A DNA stretch of 63,385 nt, the filler included, from Chrysochromulina tobinii (lineage: Eukaryota), in NCBI GenBank assembly GCA_001275005.1. It is 5 parts of 5 records of this genome, joined end to end, with 100 filler letters (N's around TTAATTAATTAA, not from the genome) between each part and the next. Parts side by side here need not be neighbours in the genome. Positions count along the whole stretch, not along the records: positions 1 to 24,909 come from JWZX01001303.1; 4 more parts are not named here. One strand, 5' to 3'. The notes beneath the pieces were generated by a model that saw only the letters and a program-made list of their open reading frames with translations, was not told the origin of the DNA and did not search any database. The translations under genes and the position numbers were made by a program. Shown here one piece after another: positions 4,607-39,232 of this stretch (position 1 is its first letter; every line of letters starts with the position of its first letter).

Positions 4607-6058
4607 TCACGCCAAAGCTGCCACCGCAGCCGCGAGAGCCTCCGAGGCGCCCGCGAGCTTTTGGCACTTCCCTTGGTAGCGGCCGCCCTTGCCGCCGCCG
4701 CGCCCATCGAGCGCCTGGGCCACCGCGCCACTGGCAACGTCAACCAGTGCCGGCGGCCCAGCGAGGGTGAAGGTGCCCTCGCCCTCGCCCTCGCCGACCA
4801 CCACGAGCAGCAGCGCCTGCTTCGCCGCCAGCGTCTCGTCCAGCGCCGTCGCGAGCGCCTTGACGAAATCGGCGTCGGCGGCCGCGCGGCGCACGAGCAC
4901 CGCCTTCTCGCCCGCGGTGAGCCTCTGGAGGAGACCCTCTGCGAGGAGGCCGACGACCTCGAGCGCGAGCGCCTTGGACGCCTTCTCGTGCTCGAGGGCC
5001 TTCCTCGCATTCTCCTCGTAGCGCTCGAGCATCGACTCGATTGGCACGTTCATTCGGCTAGCGAGGGCGCTTGCACGCTCGTAGACGCCTCCAAGGTACG
5101 AGACCACGCGTCCGCCGGCGACGTAGTGGACACGGCACGCGCCCTTGTTGCCGACACGCTCGACGCGGAGCAGCTTGATTGCTTGCAGCCGTGCAGTGTT
5201 CTGCACATGGGTGCCACAGCATGTGTTCGTGTCGATCCCTTCGAAGGACACGACACGGACGGGCCCCGTGACGCTCGGCGGTAGTGCCTTTGACGACTTG
5301 CGCAGGCCGGCGACGGCGCCCTCGTTGACCGCGACGACCGAGTGCCACGAGGGGGTGACCGGCGTGCCGGCCTTGACCGCCTCATTCGCCGCTGTCTCGA
5401 GCTCCATCATCTGCGCCGACGTGAACTCGGGGGTCCCGAGCTCAAGGAAGGAAGTCTGTTCGCCGAGGCCCCATGAAGTGGTCTCGTAGCCCCATTTCTT
5501 GAGGGCGATGGCCGTGACGAGGTGCTGCGTCGAGTGTTGGGCCATGTGGTCTTCGCGCCGCGCCCACTCGACGGCGACGGTCACGGGCGTACCGGGCGCG
5601 AGCGGCGCGGTGAGCACGTGCTTCGCAAGCCCGTCGACGTTGTCGACGCGCAGGCACGGCACGCCGCCGACGGTGCCGCAATCGCTCGGCTGGCCTCCAC
5701 CCTCCGGAAAGATGACCGTGTTGCCGAGCACCACGTCCCAAAGCTGCTCAGCCGGCACAGCCTCGGCACCGCCCTTCTTCTTGCCCTTGGCTGCAGCCTC
5801 TTGAGCCGCCTTGGGCTCGCAAGAGACGACCACGGTGTCCAGCGTACGAGCGTACGAGTCGTGTTGGCAAAGCAGCTCGCCGCAGCGCACGGGTGTGCTG
5901 GATGCGGGGATGACAGCAGACGCCACGATGGAGGCCACGCGGCTCGGCACCGACGCAAGCACGGGAGTCACAGGCGCGGGTATGGAGGCCACTGCAGAGG
6001 CTGCGCGGCTTCCTTCTAGCCACCATGGGCCTTCACGCCTCCAAACGAAGGCATCCAT
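4607..6058 (-). CDS. Alanyl-tRNA editing protein (AlaX/Aarsd1-like)
   Basis: Motifs TVIFPEGGGQPSDCG, HMAQHSTQH and CCGTHV (Zn ligands), plus C-terminal GRGGGKGGRYQGK (DHHA1-like). Confidence 0.9.
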   Translation of the reverse strand: MDAFVWRREGPWWLEGSRAASAVASIPAPVTPVLASVPSRVASIVASAVIPASSTPVRCGELLCQHDSYARTLDTVVVSCEPKAAQEAAAKGKKKGGAEAVPAEQLWDVVLGNTVIFPEGGGQPSDCGTVGGVPCLRVDNVDGLAKHVLTAPLAPGTPVTVAVEWARREDHMAQHSTQHLVTAIALKKWGYETTSWGLGEQTSFLELGTPEFTSAQMMELETAANEAVKAGTPVTPSWHSVVAVNEGAVAGLRKSSKALPPSVTGPVRVVSFEGIDTNTCCGTHVQNTARLQAIKLLRVERVGNKGACRVHYVAGGRVVSYLGGVYERASALASRMNVPIESMLERYEENARKALEHEKASKALALEVVGLLAEGLLQRLTAGEKAVLVRRAAADADFVKALATALDETLAAKQALLLVVVGEGEGEGTFTLAGPPALVDVASGAVAQALDGRGGGKGGRYQGKCQKLAGASEALAAAVAALA

Positions 6059-6306
6059 GTGTGCCGGCCGCGAGAAAGGCGCGAGAAGGAGGGCGCGTGT
6101 ACAGAGCCTAATGGCGCCGCTACGTGTCGGGGGGATACGCCCGACGACTCGACCATTTCTTGTTGCAGAAACCTCATGTGAAACGCCCATGGCGACGCGT
6201 CCTTAGAGATTCAGCTGTGTCCTAAACCTGGAAAGTTTTTGGAAAAATTGTTCACAGCTGCGTTCACGCAGGCACGCAGCAAAATTCTTCGGAGTCTTTG
6301 CCGCAC

Positions 6307-9300
6307 ATGGCAGCCTTTGCCGAGCTTGGCCTCGACGCGCCGATTGTGCGCGCAGTCGAAGACCTCGGCTGGCTCCTCCCCACGCCCGTGCAGCAGGAGG
6401 CGATCCCCTTAATCCTCGGCGGCGGCGACGTCATGGCTGCCGCCGAGACGGGCAGCGGCAAGACGGGGGCCTTTGCACTGCCCGTTCTCCAGATCTGCCA
6501 CGAGGCACTGCGCGAGCAGGCAGCCGCCTCATCGCAGCCAAAGATCGCTGCGCTCGCGGCGGCGGCCGCACGCGCGCAGGCCGCGGGTGGCATAGGTTTC
6601 GGCAGCGATCGCGACGGTCTGCTTCAGGTGAGCGCGCAAGGGCTCGAGTGCTCGTGTGGGGCCGCGCAGGCGTGGGCGGGCGGGCGGGCGGGCGTGGGCG
6701 TGACGGGCGGCCGTTACTACTACGAGGTGGAGCAGCTGGGCGATGGGCTCTGCCGCGTCGGCTGGGCCACCCTCTCGGCCAAGCTCGCGCTCGGCACCGA
6801 CATGATGGGCTTCGGTTTTGGGGGGACCGGAAAGAAGTCCAACGGTAACCAGTTCGTCGTCTACGGAGACTCGTACTCGCGCGGCGACGTGATCGGTTGC
6901 GAGCTCGATCGCGAGATCGGCTCGATGACCTTCTACAAGAATGGCGTGAGCCTCGGAGAAGCGTTCTCGGTGCCGCCGACGCTCAAGGGCATGGCGCTCT
7001 TCCCCGCAATTTGCCTCAAGGGCGCCGCAGTGCGCGTCAACTTTGGCGCTCAACCCTTTTATGCAAACTTCCTTCCCGGCGGCGTGCATGCACTCTACGC
7101 GATCGCTCCCGAACATTCGGCCACCAACTCGGCCGCCACCTCTAGCAGCAGGGACGCCACTGCCTGTGCCGGTAGCCGCGGCGGCGGCGGCGGTGGCGGC
7201 GGTGCTGATGGCGACGGGCGCGTACCGACTGCCTTGAGTAGGCAAGACTGCATGTTCTTTGCCCAAGGCCGTTGTAAATGGGGCGCACAGTGCCGATACG
7301 CGCACCCGCCACCGACCCAGCCGCCACCGACCCAGCCGCCATCGACCCAACCGCCATGGACCCAGCAGCCTCCCGGGAAGCCGTCACCCACCCCGAAACT
7401 GTCACCCGCCACCTCGCACTCGCTGCTCAAGCAGATCGAGTACTACTTCTCGGACAACCTGCCCAATGACGAGTTTATGCAGGTGGAGATTTCCAAGGAC
7501 GACGATGGCTGGGTCGACCTGACCGTCATCGCCGGCTTCAACCGCATCAAGCAGCTGCTGCCGTCGGGCAGCGTCGTGGCACTCGCCGAGGCTCTGAAGG
7601 CGTCCAAGCAACTGGCAGTGTCGGAGGATAGCACCAAGGTTAGGCGCCGGCCGTCCTATCGGCTCAGGTCGAACATGCGGGTGCTCGTCGGCGCGTGCGA
7701 CGGACGACGCAGTGTTCCCTTCAAACGTGACTTCCCGCCGGGCGAGGATGCCCTACGTGCAGCCTTCGCGAGTTTCGACGCGGACGGCAATGGGCGGCTC
7801 GACACGGTCGAGATCCAGCAGGCGCTCTCTCAGCTTGGCATGGCCGCCAGCTCGTCGGAGGCATTCGCAGTCCTCCAAAGGTACGATACCGACTGCTCGG
7901 GCGGCCTTGAGGTGGCCGAGTTTGCGAGGCTCGTCCATGAACAAGGCCCTGTTCCGATGTCGGTCAGCGTGGACAGCGGCGAGGTGGTCGCCATCCTCGA
8001 CAGCGTGGACAGCGGCGAGGTGGTCGCCATCCTCGACGAGACGCCCAAATTCGACCACATCCTCGTCGCCCGCCAGGACGGCGTGCAAGGCTACATCCGT
8101 GTGCGAAACCTGCACGTGCAAGCGTGGCCGTTAAGACAACGGCAACTGTCGCTTTCAGCCACGCTGACGAGCCACAGGTTTGTTTGGTCCTCGGGCGAGT
8201 TACAGCAGCGCGGCGCTTTCAGCATCGATGGACAATACCTTACCCACGGCTCGTCGCGACACAGGGTGACGGTGCTCGGCTCGCACGCCTTCAGCGTCGA
8301 AGGGTGGGGCGGCTACCTCCTTCTCCTTGATGCCGCGCGCACAGAAATCGTCCTCTGGGACGGCGCGGCCGTCATCAACATCGCACGCGCCAAGGGTGTG
8401 GCCGCGGCGACGGGGGCCGCGCCGGCGCTCGCGCATGGCTGGCAGGGCGTGTTTACATGGGCCAAGCATGATCAACCCGAAAACATGGGGATCCAGTGCA
8501 GCGTAAGTGGCGACGGCAAAACATTCGTGTACTGGGGCAGCGAACCTCCATCTCCGATCGTATTGATCACCCCACACGCGTGGCACCACGGCAACGGCAC
8601 TCGCGTGCACCTGCTGGATGATTCTAGCGACGGCCAATCGACGCAGCGCGCACTCACCATTTGGACACCCTCCGTCGTCGCCGCGTGCATTGCATTCCCC
8701 ACGACCTACGCCGGGCAGTACGGCGCACCGGCGGATGCGTGGCGACTTGCGCCGGGTAGGTGTGTGATTGCGGGCAACGCGACGCACGCTAGCGGCGGCA
8801 TGCTGCTGCGCCGCCGGCCGGACCTCTCGCTCGATGCCGCCAACCGCACGGACATGCAGATCTTCGATGGCGATGTATGCACTGTGCTCGAGGTTGCGGA
8901 TGGTCTCGCGGTACCACCGTCAGCAGCGTCGGCAGGAGCGGCAGGCGAGGGTCTCAGTACCTGCGCCTGGGTACGCGTCCGCAAGACCGGCGTTGGAGAA
9001 GGCTGGCTGAGCACCAACAACGTCCACATCCAAGGCCACGGCTACGCCCCCGCCGTGAAGGTGGCCGCAGCGGAAAAGGCAGGAGCTGAGGGCATGGAGT
9101 GCAGTTTCTGGTTCGTCAACGCGGACAGCCTGCGGAGCGCTTGGCAGTCAAGCCTGCCGATGATGCAGACACTACGCACACAAGAACCACACAGACTCGT
9201 CCAGAAAACGATCAGCTTCATCGAGGGCATCAAGGGCGCCTATAAGAACATTCTCGTCGTGAGCCATCGATGGGAGACGCCGACAGATCCAGATCCGACC

Positions 9301-10087
9301 GGCGCGCAGGCTTTGGCGGTGCAGGCCTACTTGTTAGATCATCCGGAGATCGACGCCGTGTGGTTCGACTTCAGCTCAATGCCCCAAGGGCAGAAGAAGA
9401 CTGAGCGCGAGTCCGCCGAGTTCAAAGAGATGCTCCCCAACATCAACCTGCTCTACCTGACGTGCTCCGTCCTTATTCTCATGGATCGGAGCTACATGAA
9501 CCGATTCTGGACGCAGTTCGAGGCGTACCTGAGCATGCGGGCGATCACGAGCGAGGGTCTGACTAACGCTTTGGATCCAAAGGCGCGTGTGACCATCAAG
9601 ACGGCTGATGACCCCAGATGACCCCTGTTGGCCCCTGTTGACCCCTGATGACCACTGATAACCACTGATGACCACTGAGTGCCTTCCTCATCAGGCGCGT
9701 GTGACCATCATGACGCTCTACAACCTTCCCCCGATCATGGGCACGGCGCTCATGGACGAGTGGTCGAACAAGACGCCTGACGAGGCTCACGCGATCCTCG
9801 CGGGGCAGGATGTGATGGTCACCAACCAGAGCGACAAGGACATCCAGCTCGCTAAGCTCAAGGTGCTCAACAAGCGCCTCCGGTTGCCATTGATAGCCTC
9901 TGATGGCTCATGATTGACTCCAAAATGACTCTGATTCCTTTTGTATGCTCGCTAAGCTCGAGGCGCTCAAAGCGCCTCTGATTGGCCCTGGTGGTTTCTG
10001 AGTCACCTGATGACCACTGAGTACCTCCCTCATCAGGTGCTCAACGAGCGAGCCCAGTGGGCGTACGCGCGCTCTCTCGATGCCTGA
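6307..10087 (+). CDS. Multidomain fusion: DDX1-like Q motif/Walker A + SPRY, CCCH zinc finger, La motif, EF-hand pair, SH3-like segments, C-terminal HET-like domain (exons 6307-9582, 9695-9862, 10037-10087)
   Basis: FAELGL..PTPVQQEAIPLILGGGDVMAAAETGSGKT; SPRY (YYYEV..CRVGWAT..GDVIGC..LFPAICLK); CMFFAQGRCKWGAQCRYAH; LLKQIEYYFSDNLPNDEFM..GWVDL..FNRIK; DADGNGRLD and DTDCSGGLE; VSHRWETPTDPDP..VWFDFSSMPQ..NINLLY..YMNRFWTQFE. Two phase-0 introns restore one frame to a TGA at 10085. Confidence 0.8.
9583..9694 (+). other. GC-AG exon-echo intron
   Basis: AAG|GCGCGTGTGACCATCA...10-nt repeats...CCTCATCAG|GCGCGTGTGACCATCA. The first 16 nt are identical to the next exon start. Phase 0, frame restored. 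Confidence 0.75.
9863..10036 (+). other. GT-AG exon-echo intron
   Basis: AAG|GTGCTCAACAAGCG...CCCTCATCAG|GTGCTCAACGAGCG, with a second internal degenerate copy of the junction (CTCGCTAAGCTCGAGGCGCTCAAAGCG). Confidence 0.75.
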
Positions 10088-10640
10088 GCCATCGATGCCG
10101 TTGTGAAGAGAAGAAAGGGTGGGGGGTGGGTGAGGCGCCGAACATGGCGCTGAAACGAGCCCCCCAACGGGAAACGGCCGCGCTGGGGGCGGGGGACTGG
10201 GGGGGAGGGAAGGGAACCTACGTGGGTGGGTGCATGGGTGCAAGCAGCATGGGTAGGGGGCATCAAGGTGGTGCCCACCATCCTTCTCGAGGGCGACGAC
10301 AACGGCTCCTAGCAGATCGACAAGTAGGTCGCGCGCAACCGCGATCACGCGGCGTTCGGGTTCATCTTCCGCGAAAACGCGCGCGACATTCTGAACAGCA
10401 AAACGTTCCACACCAGTGCTTAGTGTGCGGCCTTCGTGCAGGCGTTGTGTGCCCGCCTCCACACGAAACCGCGCCAATCCCGGTTCCCGCCCCGGTATAT
10501 CCAACCTGTTGAAAGTGGTTGAAAGATCCGTCGTATGGGACTGTCTTGAAGTCGAACGGTTTGTTGATGATTGCGGCTCACACGCATCTCACGAAAAAAA
10601 TTACCACGTGCCGCGAGCTGCGAACAGTCGGTCGACGGCA

Positions 10641-12077
10641 TTATTGTTGAAAACGCGCGCATGGCTTCGCTTCGAGTCGCACCTCGTCCTCTCGCTCGGT
10701 CTCATACACAATGTGCCCTCGGAAGTCCGACTGTACGCGGTGTCGGCGCAGCTTGGTGGCCTTCTCAACCGCCCCAGGCACCCCGACTTCGGTAAACGTG
10801 GGTGCCCGGGCGGAGCACAGCTTGCAAGTCGCATTCATACGCCCCAAGTGGTTCACCTCGTAGCACCCTTGCGCCCACATGCGTGCCCCATCCTCGACGG
10901 CAGCAGGGCGACCTCCGTCGCCGCCGCCTGTGGCGGCAGGCGGCGGCGCCCACGCAGGCAGCGACAGCTTGGGTGCGTGGAGCCACGCAAACTTGGACTG
11001 CGCGAGATGGAGCAGCATCACCTCTTGCTCATTCACCTCGAGGGTAGAACCTCGGAGCTTGAGTCGCATCGCACCGCACGGACAGAACGAGCAGCCACTT
11101 GCATAGTCGGTGCACGTCTTCGCCTCGGCAAAGGGCATCTTGAGTCTCGAGAGCACCGCGCCACCCTCAACCTCGGCGAGCCTCGTGACCACGTCGCCCA
11201 TCGTCTCCCACCCCCGAGAGTAGTGGAACTCGCCCCACCACTCGTCGAAATGAGCGTAATCTCCCGACGAGATGACCCGTTTCCAATGTGGTGAGGTGCG
11301 GAAGAGGGAGGTGCCCCAGCCGACGCGGAAGGCTGTAAACGGACCCCACGCCTTCTTGCGCCATGGGTTGGGGTAGAGCGGGGTCACCACGTTCACCTGC
11401 TCGTCGTGATCGCACGGGCAGTAGTGCTTATGCGAGTACACGTTGACCATGTTGACGTTCCGTGGCTCGAGCTGGCCCGTCTGCTTGCCCTTGCTCAGTG
11501 GGATTTGGCAGCACGTCTGGGGAGTCAGGTTGCCGGCCGCCGCGGCGGCTGCCGCGCACTCCTCGCGCGCCTTGGCCGCGCCACGGCCACCGTCACCCTG
11601 GCGCGGAATGCAGCGGCAGCAAGCCGCATGCTTGCCACGCGAGGCCAGATTCATCCACTTGAGCAGGTTGCCGAAGACGACGTCGAGATCCGACCACGCC
11701 CACCACTCGTGACCGGCGGTGTGCTGCGGGTAGAGCTCCGCGGCGAGAGGCTTGATGTCGTTGCCCTTGTTGTAGTGCCCTGCGTACGTGTCGGCGTAAT
11801 GGACGCTGCTCGAATTCCCCGGCGTGATCAGATCGGAGAGCCGCTGCTGCATGGCCACGAAGCTCGTCTTTTCAAAGTGGACATTGGAAGGCAGCACCGC
11901 CGGCGCGTCCGCGTTTGTGATGACCACGAAGTCGACGAGCGCATTGACGTACATGGATTGCAGAGTGAGCGGCAGCCACGGAGGCAGCGGGCCAAAATAG
12001 ACAATGTAAACCACGAGCGGCTTGGCGGGCGTCATGTGCGCCTGCGCCAAACGTCGGGAGTCCGCGCAGCCCGGCAC
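10641..12077 (-). CDS. DUF6625-like putative glycosyltransferase
   Basis: IVYFGPLPPWLPLTLQSM..N..VDFVVITN, DIKPL, WWAWSDLDVVFGNL (DxD). The first ATG in frame is 12035; the true start is uncertain. Confidence 0.65.
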   Translation of the reverse strand: MPGCADSRRLAQAHMTPAKPLVVYIVYFGPLPPWLPLTLQSMYVNALVDFVVITNADAPAVLPSNVHFEKTSFVAMQQRLSDLITPGNSSSVHYADTYAGHYNKGNDIKPLAAELYPQHTAGHEWWAWSDLDVVFGNLLKWMNLASRGKHAACCRCIPRQGDGGRGAAKAREECAAAAAAAGNLTPQTCCQIPLSKGKQTGQLEPRNVNMVNVYSHKHYCPCDHDEQVNVVTPLYPNPWRKKAWGPFTAFRVGWGTSLFRTSPHWKRVISSGDYAHFDEWWGEFHYSRGWETMGDVVTRLAEVEGGAVLSRLKMPFAEAKTCTDYASGCSFCPCGAMRLKLRGSTLEVNEQEVMLLHLAQSKFAWLHAPKLSLPAWAPPPAATGGGDGGRPAAVEDGARMWAQGCYEVNHLGRMNATCKLCSARAPTFTEVGVPGAVEKATKLRRHRVQSDFRGHIVYETEREDEVRLEAKPCARFQQ

Positions 12078-12549
12078 AGCTCGCCAGCACCAGCCGTGCG
12101 ACGCGCTGCGCAGGCGCGGCCGTGCGACATGAGTTCAGCGCCGTTATGAGCACTTCGAACAGAAGATGGGGTGATTGCCTCGCCATAACTACTGTCCCCA
12201 CCGATTGTGTTACGACTGTGTTGCCGTAGACGGTCCCGTCGGTCACACCTCCGTCTATAGCGAAAGGCTACCCTCATGCTTCTGCTTGCAGGGGTCCGCG
12301 CGGAGTCCGCGGAGACAGTGTACCGCGATGTGACTTGTGTTGAACAGCAGCAGCCTAGACCTCACGCTTTTTTTGATCCCCTCCAAAAACTTCCGACCAC
12401 TGATACTGTCAGCAACACAGCAAGTCGAGCAAGTTGAGTCACGCACAGCGAGACTGACAAGTCCCTGGAGAGAGCCCTTGTTGTGTGCGGCGCGGCAGCA
12501 ATGGCGTTTGGCCGGCCTCCGGTGGGCGCATCGGCCGCCCGCGCCTCTC

Positions 12550-14505
12550 TCAATACGAGTGCCACTCCATGTCGGCGCCTTTGGGGGCGCTCGCGGCCCA
12601 GCGCTCCGCCATCCGTGGCACAAACTTGGTCACGTAGAGCTCGCGCGTGATCGCATTCGGCGCGATGGTCCCGTCGGGTAGGAAGCCGTTGAAGCAGTGC
12701 TCGTACCCCCGGCCATCGTGCGCACCAATGACGATCTCGCCGCCAAAGGGCGGGTCGAGTGTGGCGTTGGTCGCCCAGTCCTGCAGGTCCATGACCGCAT
12801 TCGTCAGGAAGAAGGTGTCCGAGGCGCCCACGAAGACATGTAGCTTGCCGCTCAGCTTTGCGCCCAGCCCGTGAGCCCACTCGCGCTTGAGCTTGTCCGT
12901 CATGTCGAAGTGTTCCTTCCAATACTGCGCGACCTGCGGGTCGATGGCGCCGTACTCACACGTGGTGTCGCGCGGATCCTTGCACCAGAGGCGCTTCGGG
13001 TAGCCATCCTCGCCGCGGGGGCCAAAGACTGCTTCCCAAATGTCCCACTGGCCACACGAGCGACTTCTCGGACCGAGCACGATCTCCCGACGGTTCATTT
13101 CCTCTACGGTGGCAGTCGTCTGGCCATAGGGCGAGCCGTACGTAGGGATCGACGTGCCCGGAATCACGGCCGTGCCCGAGTAGTGATCGCGCTGCCCCGG
13201 GCGCGCCGTCCGTTTAAACGGAGCGTCGTAGAAGTATGCGTTCTTCGCCTCGTAGATATTGACCGTGGTGTACGAGGTGAAACCGATCGGATCCGGGCAG
13301 GCGACGGCCGCGTAGTTGAAGTCGTCAGGGTAGAGGACCTGCACGGCAAAGCTCTCCCAGCCGCCTGTCGAGCCGCCCATCACGCCGCGCGCCCAGCCTG
13401 CCCCGAGCCCGCGGTACTGCCCCTCAATCGCCGGCAGCAGCTCCGTCATGATCGCAGAGCCGTACGGGCCGACGTTGACGCTGTCGACTGCGTAGCTGTC
13501 GTCGAAAAAGGGCACCTGTGCGCATGGGCAGCAGGGGGCGATGGGATGCGAGCGAGCGTCGGCAGGCAGGGAGGCATGGCAAGGGATGGCCACCCTTCCT
13601 CAGCAGAGAACGGTTGGTGGTGTGGCGCACACCGGGTGGTTGATAGTGACCATGAGCGCGCGTGCGCCCTTGAAGGGCCCCTCGGCGGACGTCCAGTTGC
13701 CATAGAGCCAATTAGCATACTGTTGGTCCACGAAGGCGTACCCGGTCAGGTTGGCCGAGGGCGGCGTCGGGTCGAACCGACCGCCAGGATTGAATGTGGC
13801 CGAGTAGTGGCCGTGTGCGATCGCGAGAGGGTACTTGGCGTTTGGATGCTCGTTGAAGCCGAACGGAAGGAGTACGCACGCCTCAAGCACGATGGGTTTG
13901 CCCCAAAACGCGCTGAGCAGCTTCGAGGTCACGCGCACCGTCTTGATCCACTCGGTGTCGGCGCCCTTGCCAGAGCAACCTGGAGAGGAAGGGTGCGGGT
14001 CGGCCAGCTCGGTCAGCGAGAGCGCGACCTCCGCGTCCACGTGGAGCGTCACCGTCTTGGGCTTTGAGTAGAGCGTGCCCGGCGGCAGGCCGTACGCGCC
14101 GTCGCCGCCCCCAGGCGACACGCACGTTGTCGGCAGCGTCACATTGACGCCGTCGCCACGCACAAACACCTCATAAAGGTTGAGGTCCGCTTGCATGCAG
14201 TACTCGCCATCTTCAAGGTTGAGGAGGGAGATGTACGGATAGCCGAGGGAATCGGCCGTAATCTTGACGCTCGCGCCCGGTGCCAGACCGCCGGCGGGCG
14301 TGTCCTCGCCAAAGACCTGTGCGGTGTCCTGATCGTCGCCGCAGCTCGTGATTGGTGGCGAGGCTCCCGGCCTGCACGCGCCCCGGAGGATGAAGACACG
14401 CACCCGGCCGAGGACGTTGCCATCGGACCGGTCGGCGGGCAGCGTGACAGTCACCGTCGATGACGCGGCGATCGCGATGGCGGTGGATATGAGGAAAGGC
14501 AGCAT
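12550..14505 (-). CDS. Secreted putative esterase (alpha/beta hydrolase, enterochelin-esterase-like); intron 13516-13632
   Basis: Signal peptide MLPFLISTAIAIAAS. Spliced INHP|VPFFDDSYAVDSVNVGPYG. Nucleophile motif GGSTGGW; VGASDTFFL; EHCF. Confidence 0.85.
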
Positions 14506-15243
14506 GGGGTACAGACTGTTGGTGCTGGCAGTGGGAGAGCCGAGAGAACTTTGTAACTTACTAAGCTACCTACGCATTGGCAGGACCCCCTGAATTGCGG
14601 TGGGGGAATTTGAAGGGGATGTCGGCGTGGGAGTAAGGCGGCATGCGGCATGGAACATGGAACGGCACCTGGTGACACGACGGGACCCGGGCATGGAAAC
14701 CTGCTTGTTCTCCTCGTTGCTTGTTCTTCCCGTTGCTTGTCGTGGGCTCGGTGCTCGTCGTCAGTCCTTACTGTCGGGGCTTGAGCCCCTCCGGTCTCAT
14801 GTTGTCTGTTTCATATCGTCGTTCACAGTTCTCGCCACGACCTGGAACCATCATTGGCGCTTTTCCATGGACGTGTCGTCCCGCGCACTCTCAAGGCGGC
14901 CGCCGTGTACACGCTGTTCGTTCTCTTCTCCGGACCGTGACGCTCCCCGGGCCTTTGGCAAAGCCCTCAGTCAGGGCACCACCTCTCGCGCTCCGGGGCT
15001 GTTTCCGCCTAATAGTAGGTACTTTCCGCCTCAGGTCGCGGATCATCCCCCCGATTCCGCGAGTTTTGAGACTCTGCCTATGTTAAGTAGGCGATGCGGA
15101 CTCCATAAAGTGCCACTTCACGCACACACACAATGACCGCAAGGTTGACATAGTTGCTCCCCCCGAGCTTGCGCCTCCCTCACGTAGCCAACATTTTTTC
15201 ACCGCATTGGCGCCATACTGGGCGCCTCCGCGGTTTTTCGCAA

Positions 15244-16392
15244 ATGACTGGCTCACTACCAGACGATACGGCGCTGCTCTTGCTGCCGCTGCTGCTGTTG
15301 CTGCTGCTCATCGGGTTTGCCTGCGTCTCCACCTTTGCACGCAACCAACGCGAGACGATCACGGCCGCAACGTTCCGCAGCCGCCACGCCGCAGCTCACG
15401 GTTATGATGTTGCGTTGCTCTCCCACGGGATCACAGCCTTCCAGACAGTTGGCATGCAGAGTGGCGCTTCGCACCAAACGCCCATAATGATCGTGCACGG
15501 TGCGACCATAGCGTCGCTCGCGTACTTGCCCCTCGCACGCGCGTTTGCGACACACGGCTACCGCGTGCTTGTTTATGATGGTTTTGGAAGGGGCTTCTCC
15601 GATCGCCTGGGCCAGTGCAGCCTGGGGTCTCGGCCAGGGCCTCGGCCGGTGAGCATGGATGTGCTCGTGGGTCAGCTGCTCGAGCTGCTCGATCACCTGG
15701 CCATCGAACGCACGGTGCTCTACGGCACCAGCCTCGGCGCCGCCATCATCGCTTGCTTCGCGGCTCGCCACCCAGAGCGCGTGCTGGCGTGCGGCTTCGA
15801 GGCGCCGCTCATCCGGCCGCCGCCCTCCCACAAGCTCACGCTTCTTGCCGTGGCGGCACGCGTGCTGCCGCCGCTTGCGCGCTGGCTCGGGCGCGTTGCC
15901 ATGGTCCCCGCGATGCGTGCGCGTGGCGACTCGTTTGGCGACGACGTGGAGGCGCGTGTACTGTCGGATCGGTTTCGCGATCAGTTCGAGGTGCTCGGGC
16001 ACGAGGCCGACCTCCTCTCACTGCTCACTGGCAACGCGGTGCGCGGCGACCGCACGCAGGACCATGTGGCCATCGGTGCGCGTGCCCTGCCTGTCTCGTT
16101 TGCATACGCCCTCAGTGACGCCGAGATGCCCCGTGCGCTCGTCGAGCGCACCATCGCGCTGCACCCGCAGCCGGTAGTGAGCGCGTATGAGGGCGGGCAC
16201 TTTTTCAGCAATGGGCGGCAGGTTGAGCTTGCAAGGGTCTTTGACGCGTTCCTTCGTGGGGCGCTCCATGCACGTGACTTTATGAAATCACGGTCCGTGA
16301 TTTCGCACTCAGCGCCCCGGCCAGCAGATGCGCCAGTTCCGGTGGCGGCAGTGCGGAGGCGGCTGAGCCGTAGCCCACTCAGATACAAGTGA
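15244..16392 (+). CDS. Alpha/beta hydrolase with N-terminal membrane anchor
   Basis: IVHG, YDGFGRGFSDR, GTSLG nucleophile elbow, GGHFF, and a poly-Leu anchor. Confidence 0.85.
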   Translation: MTGSLPDDTALLLLPLLLLLLLIGFACVSTFARNQRETITAATFRSRHAAAHGYDVALLSHGITAFQTVGMQSGASHQTPIMIVHGATIASLAYLPLARAFATHGYRVLVYDGFGRGFSDRLGQCSLGSRPGPRPVSMDVLVGQLLELLDHLAIERTVLYGTSLGAAIIACFAARHPERVLACGFEAPLIRPPPSHKLTLLAVAARVLPPLARWLGRVAMVPAMRARGDSFGDDVEARVLSDRFRDQFEVLGHEADLLSLLTGNAVRGDRTQDHVAIGARALPVSFAYALSDAEMPRALVERTIALHPQPVVSAYEGGHFFSNGRQVELARVFDAFLRGALHARDFMKSRSVISHSAPRPADAPVPVAAVRRRLSRSPLRYK

Positions 16393-17015
16393 GATCGGAT
16401 GGGGTAGACGCAAGATGGTGGGCCTGCGAGCAATGGCAGCCAGAGCGGTGCGCGGCAGGTACGAGGAGCGCTCAGAGAGAGGCCGAGCGGCGCGGCCAGG
16501 AACGGCGCGCGTATTCAGCCCACCGCACGCCTCACCAGCTAGCAGCTTTCAATGCGTCGGATAGTATCATGTGGGCAAATTAAAGTGAAAGACAGTGTGG
16601 TCTCCCTGAGTATGCTGTATGCTTAAAGTTGTGGCACTTGGAAGAGTTGGCGAACATGGTACATGGGTCATGGGCCCGAGATGCGTGGCGTGAAATGCGC
16701 GTATCCGGAATCCGCTGTCCCGTGTCCGCGGACCGCGCCGTATGCGTATCGTATGTATCGGCAGACTGTCCGCCCGTGCGGTGGGAACCTTCGGCCACGC
16801 CCCACGCGGTCGCGTCCCGACCCTGCTGCAGCAAAGTCGTACATGCCCTTGCGTACATTGCCAAACATGCCATGCATGCCCTTGTCGTACATGCTGTGCG
16901 TACTACTTTGGCGAAATGAGCCGCGCTCTGACCCCGTGCTCGGCGACTCCGGAGCCTATCCCGTTTTCGAAGGGAGGTTGGGATGTGTGTGGAAGCGAAT
17001 CTGCATTCGTCGTCC

Positions 17016-17735
17016 TCATGGCGTCCAAGGCCCCGCCTCAAACGGCTTGGAGTCCCAGCGATCCCTTGGCTTCTTCTTGGGCGTCTTGGCTTCTGTGAGC
17101 CTCGGGGACGATGGGCGTGTTGCGGCGCGGGAGCGGTGCTGAGAGAGGGTGACGGTATCGCCCTTGTAGAAGGTCTGCGCCCACGGCACGAGCGCGTCCG
17201 AGTAGTCTTCGGGCAGCACGCCTGAGTCGAAGGCATAACCGCCGTCGACCGAATACTTGACGATCCGCCGTGCCATATCCACAAACACCTCCACCCTTCG
17301 GGTCACTGCGCACTCTCGGTAGTTGGTGCCACCAATGGTGGCTGGTGGCTTGTCTGTGAGCATACCACCGAGTTGGCGATCGCGCGCTTCAGCGCTGTCC
17401 ATGCCGCGCCCGACATAGACCGCGCACCCATCCACCAGACGGATGCCCCAGCGATCTCGGCCGTCGGAACTCGCAACTCCCACGCGCATGCCGCAGCCGC
17501 TAGAGCGCTGGCTGTTAACCTCGAACACGAAGTGGTGCTCACCGGTCTTCATGATGCGGCCGCCGAAGGCATCGTCGGGCTGATTGACACGCGACTGCCG
17601 CGAGTGCACCAATTTGCTTTGAGGTTTATAGCCCTGTCGCGGATCAGGAATGCTCTCCGTCTTGAAGTGGTTGTCGGCTTCGGCTACCCAGTTGGACGTT
17701 TTAGGCTTCCATGAGTGCGGCGAGGAAAGTGGCAT
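17016..17735 (-). CDS. Hypothetical protein with possible SPRY/B30.2-like beta-sandwich
   Basis: About 240-aa ORF; GEHHFVFEV..GMRVGVA..VEVFVDM..KYSVDG..LVPWAQ pattern is SPRY-like. Confidence 0.5.
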   Translation of the reverse strand: MPLSSPHSWKPKTSNWVAEADNHFKTESIPDPRQGYKPQSKLVHSRQSRVNQPDDAFGGRIMKTGEHHFVFEVNSQRSSGCGMRVGVASSDGRDRWGIRLVDGCAVYVGRGMDSAEARDRQLGGMLTDKPPATIGGTNYRECAVTRRVEVFVDMARRIVKYSVDGGYAFDSGVLPEDYSDALVPWAQTFYKGDTVTLSQHRSRAATRPSSPRLTEAKTPKKKPRDRWDSKPFEAGPWTP

Positions 17736-24909: not shown

Positions 24910-25009
24910 NNNNNNNNNNNNNNNNNNNNNNNNNNNNNNNNNNNNNNNNNNNNTTAATTAATTAANNNNNNNNNNNNNNNNNNNNNNNNNNNNNNNNNNN
25001 NNNNNNNNN
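24910..25009. other. Artificial contig linker
   Basis: 44 N + TTAATTAATTAA (stops in six frames) + 44 N. Confidence 0.97.
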
Positions 25010-25525
25010 GTTCGTCTTATTGATAAAGACGCAGAATTCGTCGAAGTCGAGGGTGCCATTATTATCTTCGTCAACGGTCGAGAAGATCTCATCAAACATC
25101 GGCTTTGGTATCGTGTAGCCGCACCGAAGGACTGCGTCGGCGAGCTCATCCTTCGTCAGTTTGCCATCACCGTCGTCATACTGGAAGAAGATGGCCCGAA
25201 GCTCGGCCTCCGGGACACCCTTGTCGGGACCCCACTCGAAGATCCCACTCAACTGGCCAGCCAATGCAGCAGATGCCCCCTTGTCCAGCCCGAATGTGGG
25301 CGCGCTTGGTGGTCTATCGGCCATCGCCTTCTCCGCCGCCGCCTTCTCAGCCGCCGCCTGCTCGGCCGCCGCCTTCAAGAGTATGTCGGTGGAAGGCGGC
25401 TGTAAAGGCGAGGCGAACATACGAACTTGACCCAAAGTCGAGTGGCCCAATGCGGAGGGGTGCCCACATACGCGCGTTGGCGACGCGGGTACCCAAGCTA
25501 GCGCAGCAAGGACGTCTGTCCGCAT
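25010..25525 (-). CDS. 5' part of a tandem paralog of the EF-hand/theta-CA gene (truncated by contig end)
   Basis: 25010-25212 is nearly identical to 27354-27556 (EF-hand pair), and the targeting peptide is similar to 27600-27725. It has an extra AAAEKAAAEK-containing insert. Confidence 0.75.
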
Positions 25526-26168
25526 CGACCCGCGGAAAGTGCTCAAGTTCAGTACCGTACATTGTAGAGGATACGTGCACAGTAAAGTACTGTGAATGAA
25601 CTGCTGTTCATTCACACCATACGTAAACAGCAACACAGCACTCTCGAAATACTGTTCATTCACAACACACCAACACATACAACGCAATCTCAAATACGTG
25701 GAAGGCAACACTCTACACTGTTCACATTCATTTATGAAAACACACCACATGTGTGTGAGCCACTGTGAACTGTGCCGCGGAGCGCAATATCGGTCACACC
25801 GCGAGAGTTGCATGCAAACAGACCAACTCGGGTACACCTAGACTTGTGACACCCTTTTTAGGTTCGGTTCTGATAACTGAGCGACCCAGAACAGATCTAT
25901 TTCCACGTTCTTTGCGGCCCCCGGCCCCTAAATCGGAACCGGGTACGGACGTGTGTCCTGTCCCCCGGCAAACTCTGTGAACACAAACCTCGTGTGACAA
26001 GACGTTCGCGGGGATCAAGGAGTCGAGCGTCTCTCGCTCTGGGAATTGGGAGTCGGCTCCGTGGTGCCTGTTTAATGTCACCGGGGCAGCTCCACCACCA
26101 CGAGCTCCGTCTGCACGGGATGGTTCCCGTTAGGCTCGGGTGCTCAACGCGGGTGGAGTGCGCGCTTT

Positions 26169-27725
26169 TCAGCTGCCGAACCCCTTCAATCGAGCTTCTT
26201 CAAGCTTCTTCAAGAGCACCTTGGCCTTTCGAGCATCCGGGTTGCTCCGATCGAGCACCCGTTTCGCGACGTCTTGGGAGCCCAGAATCGGCACGAGGTC
26301 GGGTTTCGCGCCAAACGTCTCCGCAAACAGGTCAGAAGGTGTGAGGTACTGGAGTTGTTTGGTGCGCAGCTCGAAGCTTAGAGGCTGGAAAAAGTCGCCT
26401 CCAGTCCTGCGGTTGATCATGATGCCGCCGACGATGGCGACCTCGGTGGCCCAATCCCACACGTCCGACGTCTCCTTGATGCAGTCGTCGAGGAGGTCCC
26501 GCACGATCGTGTACATCTGATACGTGACATACGTGATCGGATCCCCAGCCTTCTCGATGCCCGGAATGAGCGGTTTGAGGCGGTCGATGATGATGCCAAG
26601 CTCAGGGTCGAACTCATAGTCAGCCTCCTTTGTGTCCAGCATGGTCATCAGCGAGGCCGGCAGCAACTGCGGATTCTTCACGGCCTTCTCCGCTTCGTCC
26701 TTGATCGCCTTGTACGAGCCCACGGCCGCACCGCACGCCTTAGAGACCTGGGACTGGCCCTCTCTCTCCAGAGCGCCTATCACGCCGTACGCATCGATGC
26801 CAACGTGCGGTGCGAAGAAGATGAGCAGTTTGCCGTTGTCCGGCACGTGGTGAAGAAACGCACGGAAGCCGGACTTGCCTGCGAACGGCAGGCCGCCCAA
26901 GCCGCCCAGAGAGAATCCCTCTTGCCATCGCGACACCATCAGATTTACGAGCTCCTCTGCGTTCTGGTTCACCTCGTCCGAGCACACGCTGTGGGCGAAG
27001 AGCGTGTTGGCGGGGGTGAAGCCGCGCCGGTAGAGGGTGCTCGCCACCTTGGCGTCGAGATCACTCGAGAGGAGCGCAGTGGGGAAGTATTTGTTCTGCG
27101 CCGCCTCCGCCTTGGGGTCCACATAGATGCCACGGAAGGTCTTCTGCGCCCAAGCGTATTCGTCGTCGTATCTGCTGACGCCGAAGGCTGCAATAGTTGA
27201 GAGAGCCACGAAGAGAACGGTACGGCGCCGCGCTAGGAGATCCCGATTTGCAGCAAACTGCGCAAACTCAAACTTGTCGACGGACCCGCTGTTGTCCGCG
27301 TCGTAAGTCCTGAAGAGATCCATCGCGTCTATGACGCTCTGCTGTGGCTTCAAGTTCGTCTTATTGATAAAGACGCAGAATTCGTCGAAGTCGAGGGTGC
27401 CATTATTATCTTCGTCAACGGTCGAGAAGATCTCATCAAACGTCGGCTTTGGTATCGTGTAGCCGCACCGAAGAACTGCGTCGGCGAGCTCATCCTTCGT
27501 CAGTTTGCCATCACCGTCGTCATACTGGAAGAAGATGGCCCGAAGCTCGGCCTCCGAGGACTTGGCCTCACCCAAAAGAAGGCGGTCGAAGAGGGGAGGC
27601 GGTGAAGGCGAGGCGGTCATACGGACTTGACCCAAAGTCGAGTGGCTCAACGCGGAGGGGTGGCCACATACGCGCGTTGGCGACGCGGGTACCCAAGCGA
27701 GTGCAGCAAAGACGGCTATCAGCAT
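26169..27725 (-). CDS. EF-hand-containing LCIB/LCIC-family (theta-type) carbonic anhydrase, plastid-targeted
   Basis: Signal plus transit-like N-terminus; three EF-hand loops (DDGDGKLTKDE, DEDNNGTLDFDE, DADNSGSVDKFE); RRR plus hydrophobic helix; LCIB motifs HSVCSDEVN, LGGLGGLPFAGKSGF..HHVP, APHVGI, ACGA, GGIMIN. Confidence 0.88.
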   Translation of the reverse strand: MLIAVFAALAWVPASPTRVCGHPSALSHSTLGQVRMTASPSPPPLFDRLLLGEAKSSEAELRAIFFQYDDGDGKLTKDELADAVLRCGYTIPKPTFDEIFSTVDEDNNGTLDFDEFCVFINKTNLKPQQSVIDAMDLFRTYDADNSGSVDKFEFAQFAANRDLLARRRTVLFVALSTIAAFGVSRYDDEYAWAQKTFRGIYVDPKAEAAQNKYFPTALLSSDLDAKVASTLYRRGFTPANTLFAHSVCSDEVNQNAEELVNLMVSRWQEGFSLGGLGGLPFAGKSGFRAFLHHVPDNGKLLIFFAPHVGIDAYGVIGALEREGQSQVSKACGAAVGSYKAIKDEAEKAVKNPQLLPASLMTMLDTKEADYEFDPELGIIIDRLKPLIPGIEKAGDPITYVTYQMYTIVRDLLDDCIKETSDVWDWATEVAIVGGIMINRRTGGDFFQPLSFELRTKQLQYLTPSDLFAETFGAKPDLVPILGSQDVAKRVLDRSNPDARKAKVLLKKLEEARLKGFGS

Positions 27726-28841
27726 CGACCCGACGGAAGTCGACGTGAGAGAGCTCACGTGACCTGAGCGCGCGTGCTCTGATTTCTTCGTGTTTCTATA
27801 TTTGCTATGTCGGACCCGGAATTACCCGAGATTCCCATATGTGACGAATCTCATGGCTGCCTAATGAAGAGAAGACGAAACCCTGGGAAATGTTTATTTC
27901 TTAGATACCGGGTACGTAAGTGTCAAGTCAAGTCAAGTCAAGCCAAATCAAGCCTTGACTTGTACCGGGTAAGTGCTAACCCATCGTGAGGGAGCGACCG
28001 ACCTCGCACGAGTTTAAGCTTTAACCCAAGACCGGCTGTGTAGATGGCGTCCGTCTGCTCGGCGGTGAGAGCGCCGCTGTGAAACATCTCGGAGTACATG
28101 AAGGCTCGAATTTTGCATTGCCCCATGTATGTACGTACCCTCACCGTCCGCGCGGTGCGGGTGGCACCGGTGGCCCGGCGAGGCGCTCGTGTTGAGAGTT
28201 GACTAACGTGATAACAGTCTTGTCGAGAGAAACGTGCAGGTCGCGATAAAGCAGTGGCGCTCATCATGGCGCAAGTCAAGCAGCTGAGCTCCGTGTGACG
28301 AGATTTCGTACCGGGCAGTCCCGCGAGGCCACCTGCCCCTGACCCCCTGTGCCCCACCTTGACCCAGACGCTTCCCAGCTCCGGCCCTCCGCATAAGCTC
28401 CGCAAATGCACGATACGCCTCCGCCGTGCTCGGGTACCCATGATTAAATGGACGCACTCAGGGCAATTAAATTCGGCAATAGGGTCCATCAGGGACAATC
28501 AGGGAAAATCAGGGAGGATCGGGTAACTGATGAGGGATACAATCAGAGGCATTCCGGTGGGCAATCGGGCACGGGAGCGGATCGGGTGTACCTCATGAGG
28601 GACGCAATCACTTCAGCATGGCAATCAGTCACAGTACGCAGTCGCAGACCGCGGCAGACGTGTCATCACGGGTACGAGGTTTCAGGTTACAGTACGTTAG
28701 TAGTACGGACGAACGCGACGCGTGTGAAGTTCATGTTCCCCCCCCACTCAGTAAAAAATTCCACGCGGTCGTCCACACGCTGCGTCGTTTACGTCCTATA
28801 CTCACATTACTGACTGATGCCGGTATAGGGTATAGTTTCTG

Positions 28842-29507
28842 TCAAGCGTCCCACCTTCTCGCGCCGGCTGACCGCTCGCGCCTCGCGCCGAACTCGAACG
28901 GGTTGCCGCCGCCGGCCGCCGGTGAGGCCGTCGGAGACGCCGCGCCTGGCCTCGCGCTGTTCGACTCCCAGAATCGTCGCATGGCCTCGCTGTAGCCGGG
29001 GACGGCAACGCGCGAGAGCGCGTTGCCGAAGGAAGCAGCCACGCTCGGGCTGGTGCTGAACGACACCCACGAGTGGCCGCTGAGGATATTGTCAATCTCC
29101 TCGACAATCTCCGGCTGCGGGTGGCCGACGCCGACTACAGCCTTCCAGAACGTGATGTACTCGTCCCAAGTGATGCTGTCGTTGCCATCCGCGTCAAGCT
29201 GATCGAACATGGATGAGGCGTTCACACGCGCAAAGTTCGAGCCCCAATATGCGGTCGCCTCTGCTCTGCTGAGCTCTCCGTTTCCGTCAGTGTCGATGGC
29301 CTGGAAGAGCTCCCGCAGCTTCTTCAGCAAATTTTTCTGCAGCGTGACGCCTGCCGCGAGTTGCTCGATGGGTACCTCGCCAATGAGCCGGCCTTCGGCA
29401 GACCACCTGTAGCGCTGCGTCTTAGGCTCGTCGATTTTCTGCCGTTGGGCCAGCAGCGACTCAGCCTGCTGGCGCTCGATTGAAGCCTCGTCCCACTTCA
29501 AGGGCAT
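28842..29507 (-). CDS. Small EF-hand calcium-binding protein
   Basis: DTDGNGELSRAE and DADGNDSITWDE loops. Likely start MPLKWDE at 29507; the ORF is open further upstream. Confidence 0.8.
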   Translation of the reverse strand: MPLKWDEASIERQQAESLLAQRQKIDEPKTQRYRWSAEGRLIGEVPIEQLAAGVTLQKNLLKKLRELFQAIDTDGNGELSRAEATAYWGSNFARVNASSMFDQLDADGNDSITWDEYITFWKAVVGVGHPQPEIVEEIDNILSGHSWVSFSTSPSVAASFGNALSRVAVPGYSEAMRRFWESNSARPGAASPTASPAAGGGNPFEFGARRERSAGARRWDA

Positions 29508-30140
29508 GACTGGAAGCCCAGCGAAGACTTCAAACAGGGCGATGGATGGATGGTTGGTCTGACACGCGCCGCGGCTGCATTCTTGCAAATCCAAACTTTC
29601 AACTTTGGCAAGAAGTTTTGAGAAACAGAGAGGGAAAACGCTATTAAAAACCGGAAATCGCATGAACATCCACGTTGAACGCAAGAACCAGACCAGCGGC
29701 TCACGACACCGAGATTGCAGAGCGATTCCGAGGCGGCTGAATTTGGGCTGATCGTCAAGCGTGAGGTCGCGCATGCTGAGCGGCGGCGGCGCATGCACGG
29801 CGGGAGCAAGACACACCCCCGCAGAGGCAGCGCCGCCGCTCATGAGGGGGAAGGCACGCTTCTTACGGCTGGCCCGAGGGAGGCTCGCGGCTACTTGAAG
29901 CAGGGGCAGCAGCACTCGACCGCTTCCTGAATGCATTCCCCCAGGCAGGGCGGCTGCTCGCAGCAGCGCCACGTCGAGCTGCCACACCTCCACTCCCAGA
30001 AACAGACCCTGAGCATAGCGAGCCGGTCGGAGCAGGCGTGAGGGGCAGGGGGCGCTCAGCGGTGGGAGCACACGAGGGGCGCGCGGGGCGGGGACGAGCC
30101 GAGCGGTGCGAAAGGCTGGGGGTTCGAAAACTTCAGGGAG

Positions 30141-32780: not shown

Positions 32781-32988
32781 GCGTGCCGCCCGTCGCGTGC
32801 CGTGGAGAGTCGCCCCCACCCAAAGGGGTCAAAGGCTCGCGCATCATTCCAAATCGCCTTGAACTACGGTATCTGTGCTCAGGGCAACGCGTTTCGTCAG
32901 AGCCACACACGTAACGGTTAGTACGGCGGTGGTCAAAATAGGACGTAGTTAATTGCGCGAATCTAGCGCGAATCGTCATCGCTGGTCC

Positions 32989-37272: not shown

Positions 37273-37431
37273 CGCAGAGGACCACTCCGACGAGGAGGCG
37301 GCCGAAGGCGTCCACGCACTCGTGAACTTGACGTGAAACAGGAATCACGCCGCGCTCCGCGCGCCGTACCAGGCGTTCACACAACACACACTCGGGTAGC
37401 TCACTGAGCTCTTCCTCACTACGAGGGGATG

Positions 37432-39092: not shown

Positions 39093-39232
39093 CCCCGAGG
39101 CGGGCTCCAAGCAGCGTCGTGGGCGAATCAAGACAAGTCAAGTCAAGTTGTCAGCGATAAGATTATGTCTTGGGAGTCGGTGTTTCGTTATTAACTCCCA
39201 GAGCGTCCCTTCTCCACCTACTTTACCGGCGG

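What the first reader, a model, noticed from the sequence alone, without database searches (positions are those of the whole stretch)
6307..10087. Truncated DDX1 front end fused to RNA-binding and Ca-binding modules and a HET-like effector domain
Seen: the N-terminus keeps the DDX1-type Q motif, Walker A and inserted SPRY domain, but I find no DEAD motif or second RecA domain. CCCH finger, La motif, EF-hands and SH3-like segments follow in one uninterrupted exon, then SH.W..P..PDP / W.D..S.PQ / Y..R.W...E motifs. Known: these last motifs characterise HET domains, TIR-related cell-death effectors in fungi, and DDX1 and La are host RNA factors commonly engaged by viruses. Inference: an integrated-decoy or sensor array coupled to a death/NADase-type effector, which could be an antiviral system in an alga.
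Basis: partly seen in the sequence, partly recalled or inferred. Interest (0 to 1): 0.72.

Follow-up and report, generated by a model that had tools for sequence, protein, structure and literature searches.

The report
Shuffled TIR-like cassette on gene fragments
In a freshwater alga, a multi-copy module with a predicted immune-enzyme (TIR/HET-like) fold sits behind copied pieces of several housekeeping genes, and near-identical copies sit behind other partners, which suggests a likely mix-and-match sensor repertoire; this copy's function is untested and its first 140 codons are probably an assembly mis-join.

Summary
The ORF and domains are real: DDX1 homology stops at residue 310, before motif Ia; CCCH, La and EF-hands follow. 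The C-terminal module fails Pfam HET (relatives reach 20.8 of 22.5 bits). A confident model (pLDDT 96) resembles TIR/NDT folds (best Z 7.0) and keeps a Glu at the TIR catalytic position (93 of 97). It belongs to a large unnamed family (1,541 clusters; nearest Atlas clusters mostly haptophyte) fused to Roc-COR, GBP, ankyrin, ARM, TIR and receptor ectodomains. In Chrysochromulina a ~1.3-kb cassette (from 9057) is copied at ~90% identity behind many partners, dN/dS 0.32. The upstream modules are 87-99% identical copies of other sequences in the same samples, joined in frame. Correction: the ATG and Q motif (6307-~6730) probably belong to the intact DDX1 gene. All 7 full-length metagenome versions attach the fusion to a degenerate DDX1 fragment, and RNA contigs carry the window's 5' end and a different SPRY copy. 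Transcription across the junctions was not shown. Best reading: a young shuffle product in a likely NAD-cleaving sensor-effector repertoire; the antiviral decoy role is unproven.

The parts
4607..6058 (-). AlaX-like tRNA-editing gene, head-to-head with the DDX1 start; likely the neighbour of intact DDX1 rather than of the fusion
   Evidence: Pfam tRNA_SAD E 1e-10; one unbranched DNA contig 5108-6474
6307..6730 (+). DDX1 codons 1-142 (ATG, Q motif, Walker A at 6433-6465); probably the 5' end of the intact DDX1 gene, mis-joined here
6731..7236 (+). Duplicated DDX1 fragment: most of SPRY (Pfam 6712-7050) and linker, ending at L310 before motif Ia
   Evidence: 94%-identical other copy in RNA contigs
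7240..7311 (+). CCCH zinc finger, followed by a Pro-rich linker
   Evidence: Pfam zf-CCCH 25.4 bits; related copies diverge at 7248 and 7305
7408..7640 (+). La motif (Pfam 7426-7596), copied from an expressed La-motif gene; one codon shorter than that copy
   Evidence: RNA contigs about 95% identical that diverge on both sides
7654..8109 (+). EF-hand pair (7744-7932) and weak SH3-like segment (7993-8109) with a small internal tandem duplication
   Evidence: 87%-identical other copy over 7654-7996
8110..8769 (+). Unassigned segment, also present in a second copy
   Evidence: no Pfam hit; model uninformative; paralogous contigs; P0057
8770..9056 (+). Second SH3-like segment, by eye only; its other copy continues with different sequence after 9055
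   Evidence: no SH3 hit; loose end in X8
9057..10405 (+). Multicopy 3' cassette: AEKAAA-type linker, module exons, two introns, 3' end and downstream DNA
   Evidence: 82-96% identical matches; 5' edge at 9057, 9063 or 9078/9079 where the locus reaches it, 3' edge at 10066-10405 where not cut by the locus end
9088..9582 (+). HET/TIR-like module, exon-1 part; putative catalytic Glu E1072 at 9520-9522
9583..9694 (+). Intron 1 (predicted GC-AG, 112 nt); starts with a copy of the next exon's first 16 nt; absent from some paralogues
   Evidence: 112-nt skip in one RNA contig; absent in L007, L024, L014-16, L018
9695..9862 (+). Module exon 2
   Evidence: family HMM positions 162-227
9863..10036 (+). 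Intron 2 (GT-AG, 174 nt)
   Evidence: 174-nt skip in RNA contigs of X11 and X12, which carry paralogue letters
10037..10087 (+). Module exon 3 and stop

Best explanation
This is a young chimeric gene in which duplicated fragments of DDX1, CCCH, La, EF-hand and SH3-like genes sit in frame in front of a multicopy cassette whose product has a predicted TIR-like fold and is likely an NAD+-cleaving signalling or death enzyme. Shown: the cassette starts in a low-complexity AEKAAA linker and occurs behind many unrelated partners; its copies keep the frame and the Glu; the upstream pieces have 87-99% identical counterparts in the same samples. Inferred: copying happens by ectopic recombination or repair at short homologies, since 5' edges fall in the linker and 3' edges are nested. 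The result would be a repertoire of sensor-module fusions, in which partner binding (RNA or Ca2+ for this copy) clusters the module and switches on Glu1072-dependent catalysis. This copy is best read as a recent, weakly constrained trial member. Its true start is probably the degenerate DDX1 fragment (Met43 or an upstream in-frame ATG), not the window's ATG.
For: Fold: pLDDT 96, pTM 0.92. VIA best Z 7.0, rmsd 3.9, 110 aligned to the SpbK TIR; the top 11 rows are TIR/SEFIR or nucleoside deoxyribosyltransferase-like entries, one of them titled only 'conserved protein'. Foldseek's top 6 are TIR-bearing. Glu145 lies in the helix after the third core strand and is kept in 93 of 97 ungapped rows. 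HET is the Pfam family matched by most members, 14 of 102, on the motif blocks. Family size: 1,541 clusters at E<=0.001. Of 57 long members scanned, 26 had Pfam partners: Roc/COR 5, HEAT/ARM 5, GBP 3, decapeptide 3, Ank 2, LRR 2, and one each of WD40, kinesin, Tub, DnaJ-like, C-lectin, LamG. Young copies at 85-95% identity carry TIR_2, ARM, DUF6815 or TM-receptor N-termini. 20 complete cores gave 13 distinct sequences in 9 upstream groups, none with a stop, mean dN/dS 0.32. Donor-like contigs diverge at 7248, 7408, 7640 and 9055-9063. TIR genes respond to virus in another haptophyte (PMC12489294, abstract and section 20).
Against: Fold scores are middling: Z under 8, no Foldseek match at E<=0.001, and NDT enzymes tie with most TIRs. 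Profile comparison with the window's canonical TIR gave probability 0.1%. No enzymatic or genetic data exist. No transposon ends were identified, so the copying mechanism is inferred. Paralogue cores come from short-read metagenome assemblies that visibly mix copies (5 of 7 cluster members have paralogue letters in the module), so counts and dN/dS are approximate. A sister copy, P0057, is frameshifted in the module.
Confidence: 0.5

Rival explanations
1. One reading: a selected integrated-decoy receptor, in which DDX1 and La pieces bait viral factors and trigger the death or NADase module.
For: At least 4 junctions are in frame (chance 1/81 if random, before ascertainment). All indels listed in 7453-8944 are multiples of 3 or compensate. 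The La residues I recall as RNA-binding (Q376, Y379, Y380, D388, F390, F412) are kept. Fast change in decoys is expected: 18 N to 7 S downstream of 7240.
Against: No virus link was tested or found. The DDX1 part probably starts from a degenerate fragment. The architecture was found only in near-identical genotypes. The N:S ratio fits neutrality (p 0.82). An open frame would survive neutral drift of 2-5% with probability 0.24-0.03.
Confidence: 0.18
2. Non-functional by-product: a proto-gene or dying chimera made by a shuffling-prone genome; the functional module copies lie elsewhere.
For: N:S is neutral-like in La and mid segments. The likely true 5' end has a 25-bp deletion and follows a 209-bp hairpin. 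A sister copy is frameshifted. The RNA contigs listed over the module carry paralogue letters (27-30 differences in 458 nt).
Against: 3.2 kb of open frame across several junctions; intact Glu and splice sites; window-type RNA contigs exist at 6896-7156 (1 difference) and 7726-7876 (0 differences), though at depth 2-3 and possibly from DNA.
Confidence: 0.22
3. The module is not an immune NADase but a nucleoside/nucleotide-processing (NDT-like) or scaffold domain used in general signalling.
For: NDT structures score Z 5.2-6.0. Partners include kinesin, Tub, ABC1 kinase and topoisomerase. How HET domains kill is unknown (PMC10890737, passages).
Against: Partners are rich in Roc-COR, GBP, ART, PARP, TIR, LRR and receptor ectodomains; there is rapid copy turnover.
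Confidence: 0.1
4. Separate question, the 5' end: the window's join is real (strain-specific recombination between DDX1 and its partial duplicate), so the fusion does carry the ATG and Q motif.
For: The window and the NCBI model P0002 show it. Assemblers of the metagenomes mix paralogues elsewhere in this gene. I could not see the phased contig over 6707-6762 directly.
Against: P0002 is not independent: its contig is 24,909 bp, the length of the window's first N-free block. 7 of 7 full-length cluster members (17 contigs) carry the other 5' type. RNA contigs carry window-type 6277-6660 and other-type 6723-7164. Outgroup DDX1s side with the window at L68 and L105 (7 of 7 each), and partly with the RNA type at 166 and 185.
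Confidence: 0.25

Closest known systems
Fungal HET domain (PF06985; Podospora HET-E/D/R and BH1)
   Same: Motif blocks align weakly to the HET model; remote TIR relation with a conserved Glu (PMC4986451, PMC9153377, passages); high copy number and non-NLR fusions (PMC10890737, passages). HET homologues in Haptophyceae were noted in 2014 (PMC4986451).
   Different: Below the Pfam cut-off; C-terminal here; no NACHT/NB-ARC; partner domains are recent copies of housekeeping genes.
TIR NADases (SpbK, SARM1, RUN1, AbTir) and Gephyrocapsa huxleyi TIR genes induced by EhV
   Same: Predicted alpha/beta fold and Glu position; ectodomain-TM-module receptors among paralogues (L014, L019), like the G. huxleyi receptor-type TIR (PMC12489294, section 20).
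   Different: The window's module matches no TIR Pfam family; it has about 50 extra N-terminal and about 40 extra C-terminal residues; activity is untested.
Plant NLR integrated decoys (recalled, no call)
   Same: Host-protein fragments fused to an immune-type module.
   Different: No NLR core; several unrelated fragments in one chain; no pathogen target known.
Drosophila 'tinkering loci' (bioRxiv 10.64898/2026.08.09.743762, abstract and outline) and Pack-MULE-type chimeras (recalled)
   Same: Composite genes from dispersed duplicated fragments by ectopic recombination.
   Different: Here a fixed effector-like 3' cassette recurs; no transposon was tied to the junctions.
DDX1 RNA helicase
   Same: Residues 1-310, 60% identical to the closest intact relatives.
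   Different: Lacks motif Ia onward; cannot be a helicase, despite the NCBI name 'RNA helicase' on P0002.

Membership tests
HET (PF06985) | Score at or above Pfam gathering cut-off 22.5 bits | tested here: not met
   No hit for P0001 at E<=1; best relative 20.8 bits; 14 of 102 members match at E<=0.5
HET (PF06985) | Three conserved blocks ending in R.W..E | tested here: met
   S59, W62, D94, Q100, R139 invariant in 102 rows; W141 101/101, E145 93/97; weak HET matches cover model 1-85; the third block is matched to a recalled HET motif
HET (PF06985) | Induces cell death | not testable with these tools
   needs expression assay
TIR NADase | TIR fold | tested here: inconclusive
   Best Z 7.0 (rmsd 3.9, 110 aligned); TIR and NDT entries fill the top rows, but Z is under 8 and Foldseek E>0.01
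TIR NADase | Catalytic Glu in helix C after strand C | tested here: met
   E145 in helix 140-149 after strand 127-132, conserved 93/97; equivalence inferred from topology, no residue-level superposition seen
TIR NADase | Sequence match to TIR families | tested here: not met
   No TIR Pfam hit on the module; hhalign 0.1% against one single TIR sequence
TIR NADase | NAD+ hydrolysis on oligomerisation | not testable with these tools
   needs assay
DDX1 helicase | Two RecA domains with motifs Ia-VI | tested here: not met
   homology ends at L310
Integrated-decoy NLR | NB-ARC/NACHT core | tested here: not met
   none in Pfam scan
Integrated-decoy NLR | Integrated domain copied from a host gene that still exists | tested here: met
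   Expressed 94-95% identical SPRY and La copies that run on into other sequence; the rest of the DDX1 donor was not read
Integrated-decoy NLR | Integrated domain is bound or modified by a pathogen factor | not testable with these tools
   no data

The most novel reading that the evidence does not exclude
Haptophytes build an innate-immune repertoire without NLRs. A Pfam-invisible TIR-fold NADase cassette is repeatedly pasted behind surface receptors, GTPases and freshly copied pieces of host RNA factors, and this gene is a multi-decoy antiviral sensor caught soon after its birth.
Probability: 0.22. Interest if true: 0.82.

Novelty: new variant of a known kind. Interest (0 to 1): 0.56.

Why it matters
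Antiviral mechanisms of microalgae are largely unknown; a 2025 study states that TIR-based antiviral systems had not been described in microalgae and defined TIR genes by six Pfam families (PMC12489294, passages). This family matches none of the TIR models in my Pfam scans, so such inventories could miss it. It offers a small, well-modelled domain with one Glu to mutate, which also bears on the open question of whether HET-type domains are enzymes. The cassette shows domain shuffling in progress. The case also warns that the public gene model 'RNA helicase' is misnamed and probably mis-joined.

Tried and rejected
The DDX1 search (607-1932 aa, 7,989 best candidates scored, 120 of 504 listed) returned no near-identical intact copy; closest were 60-68%. 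A split or intron-broken model would be missed. No relatives of the module in viral contigs or prokaryote genomes (one pattern only); no PADLOC or meaningful NCBIfam hit; no PDB sequence match. BFVD best hit was a TIR/WD40 protein at E 6e-3. Atlas named search gave only a 0.75 lead. Single-sequence model of residues 449-917 failed (pLDDT 31) and was not searched. Homodimer prediction gave no answer (0.24 against mark 0.32). RNA contigs had no cover at 8409-9041 in X11, X12 and X13 or at 8276-9031 in X11 and X14; this is not evidence of silence. A helical domain beside the module in L006/L010/L012 looked SAM-like by eye but got no Pfam or PDB support. The intron label printed was wrong (pattern too loose) and was redone. 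TIR, LRR and ankyrin genes further along the window lie beyond N gaps, so I do not claim a defence island. DNA depth of ~950-1030 on the module against ~75 on flanks is only a weak hint of copy number.
Full report
Observation. The frame from ATG 6307 is open to 9621. Pfam finds DEAD 26-66 (model 1-41 of 167), SPRY 136-248, CCCH 312-335, La 374-430, EF-hands 480-542 and a sub-threshold SH3_3 at 563-601; it finds no HET at E<=1. Similarity to intact DDX1 ends at L310, immediately before motif Ia. Splicing out 9583-9694 and 9863-10036 gives 1164 aa and a stop at 10087. RNA contigs skip 174 nt (X11, X12) and 112 nt (X12) at these places; the contigs with the 174-nt skip carry paralogue letters. 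The C-terminal stretch is 100% identical to P0002, which its sources name RNA helicase of Chrysochromulina tobinii.

The module. Residues 925-1095 found 12 long and 42 short relatives and 1,541 clusters at 50% identity with E<=0.001, 738 at 1e-10 (the best 150 were listed). The three Atlas clusters shown (scores 0.92-0.97) are eukaryotic, commonest Haptophyta, with phylum known for only 6-24 members each and no common Pfam. I folded P0187, a paralogue from L007 that lacks intron 1, with 102 sequences: pLDDT 96, pTM 0.92. VIA-align ranks the SpbK TIR first (Z 7.0, rmsd 3.9, 110 aligned), then MAL, MyD88 and nucleoside deoxyribosyltransferases at about 6; none of 48,161 chains reaches 8. Foldseek's first six rows are TIR-bearing, but all have E>0.01. 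Glu145 (E1072 in the window) sits in the helix after the third core strand and is kept in 93 of 97 ungapped rows. HET is the Pfam family hit by most members, 14 of 102; among 63 short members scanned one by one, 7 hit it at E<=0.05, best 20.8 bits against a cut-off of 22.5. So it works like a HET/TIR domain by prediction, but is not a Pfam member of either.

Partners. Of 139 new representatives I scanned the 57 longer than 480 aa: 26 had Pfam partners and 31 none. Partners were Roc/COR, HEAT/ARM (one with PARP, one with a whole DEAD helicase), GBP, ankyrin (one with ART), LRR, WD40, C-lectin, LamG, decapeptide repeats, kinesin, Tub and DnaJ-like. A young subfamily at 85-95% identity has TIR_2, ARM, DUF6815, F5/8-C plus TM, or a long ectodomain plus TM with a second module behind.

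The cassette. In 27 metagenome loci DNA similarity to the window starts at 9057, 9063 or 9078/9079, inside an AEKAAA-coding linker, where the locus reaches that far (L024, L026, L027 begin inside the module; L025 gave no row; L001 is the same locus). It ends at nested points between 10066 and 10405 where not cut short. L003 and L009 each hold two copies. 20 complete exon-1 cores (6 more were incomplete and dropped) gave 13 distinct sequences in 9 upstream groups, some related to each other. All are 486 nt, stop-free, and keep FWTQFE; mean pairwise dN 0.048, dS 0.148 (pairs are not independent and assemblies may be mosaics). I identified no terminal repeats or target-site duplication by eye, so ectopic recombination is an inference.

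The upstream array. Laying contigs of DNA runs X1 and X8 and RNA runs X11-X14 shows second copies of each piece: SPRY at 94-95%, La at about 95% with other sequence on both sides, the EF-hand region at 87%, and 8008-8749 at 93-99%, with loose ends at 7248, 7305, 7408, 7640, 9055, 9057 and 9063. Only 40 of 114 differences were shown. Among them, downstream of 7240 there are 18 non-synonymous to 7 synonymous, as expected without selection (p 0.82) and unlike dN/dS 0.2 (p 3e-4). Listed indels keep the frame. This fits either a drifting proto-gene or fast-evolving decoys.

The 5' end. L001 matches the window at 99.6% from 6348 to 17582, with every difference up to 10700 lying in 6353-6730, including a 25-bp deletion that destroys the Q motif. 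Upstream it has a perfect 99-bp-arm hairpin instead of the AlaX-like gene. All 7 full-length members of the P0003 cluster (17 contigs) carry this N-terminal type; the eighth, P0057, is a partial, frameshifted sister copy. The simplest phasing is AlaX - intact DDX1 at one locus and hairpin - degenerate fragment - fusion at another. P0002 does not argue otherwise, since its 24,909-bp contig equals the window's first block. Against: 5 of the 7 members also show paralogue letters in the module, so these assemblers do mix copies; these samples may be one campaign; and I could not read the donor's continuation. I put the mis-join at about 75%.

Mechanism. Shown: a repeated cassette, purifying selection on it, variable partners and recent fragment capture. 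Inferred: partner binding clusters the module and triggers Glu-dependent NAD+ cleavage, as TIR enzymes do (PMC9153377, passages). For this copy, RNA (CCCH, La) or Ca2+ (EF-hands) would be the inputs. Untested: expression across junctions, activity, and any virus link.

Literature. HET homologues in Haptophyceae and the HET-TIR relation were reported in 2014 (PMC4986451, passages). HET enzymatic activity was not established (PMC10197012, PMC10890737, passages). TIR genes, some receptor-like, respond to EhV in G. huxleyi (PMC12489294, abstract, passages, section 20; supplements not read). Shuffled candidate receptors are known in brown algae (PMC11378527, abstract). Eight searches listed no paper on this family or cassette; most subscription journals are outside the library. 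Earlier scan notes held no look-alike; two analogies came up.

Verdict. A real, young fusion to an unnamed HET/TIR-like family; a new variant of a known kind. The family and its cassette are more interesting than this single gene. Interest 0.56.

Noticed in passing
window 9583-9694 and 9863-10036; L005, L008-L010, L017, L019, L027: Both introns begin with a copy of the next exon's start (16 and 9 nt). Intron 1 is absent in some paralogues and holds up to four tandem copies of the junction in L009, suggesting recent intron gain by exon-edge duplication. Introners are reported for a Chrysochromulina (bioRxiv 10.1101/2022.06.06.494994, passages), but with 4-bp duplications.
   Followed up: partly
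L014:2879-8570 (also L015, L016, L018): Single-pass receptor with a long Gly-rich repeat ectodomain followed by two tandem modules, one young and one about 40% identical.
   Followed up: partly
L001:1-209: Perfect hairpin, 99-nt arms and 11-nt loop, at the contig end upstream of the degenerate DDX1 fragment; element end or assembly artefact.
   Followed up: partly
L012:2860-3087, L010:859-1086, L006:3516-3749; tails of P0005, P0007, P0042: A 75-aa helical domain travels with the module, before or after it; SAM-like by eye, no Pfam or PDB match.
   Followed up: partly
L025:7064-9114: Intron-split distant module followed by a GBP-type GTPase in an environmental contig.
   Followed up: no
window 30144-32828 (-), 35794-37344 (-), 39161-41833 (+), 55044-56441 (-): TIR_2, ankyrin and LRR genes; on other contigs beyond N gaps.
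   Followed up: no
window 42825-44943 and 50264-52383: 2.1-kb direct duplication at 98% with internal ~195-bp tandem units, next to WD40 hits.
   Followed up: no
window 24965-30140 (-): Cluster of EF-hand ORFs, one fused to an LCIB/C-type carbonic anhydrase domain.
   Followed up: no
window 56798-57102: 68-bp tandem repeats, each ending in the intron-acceptor-like motif seen in the module's introns.
   Followed up: no
window 59923-60792 (-): Pol beta-barrel domain of a retrotransposon, flanked by N gaps.
   Followed up: no
P0025 (NCBI model): Another copy of the module is named 'trafficking protein particle complex 8', a probable misannotation that also names an Atlas cluster.
   Followed up: no
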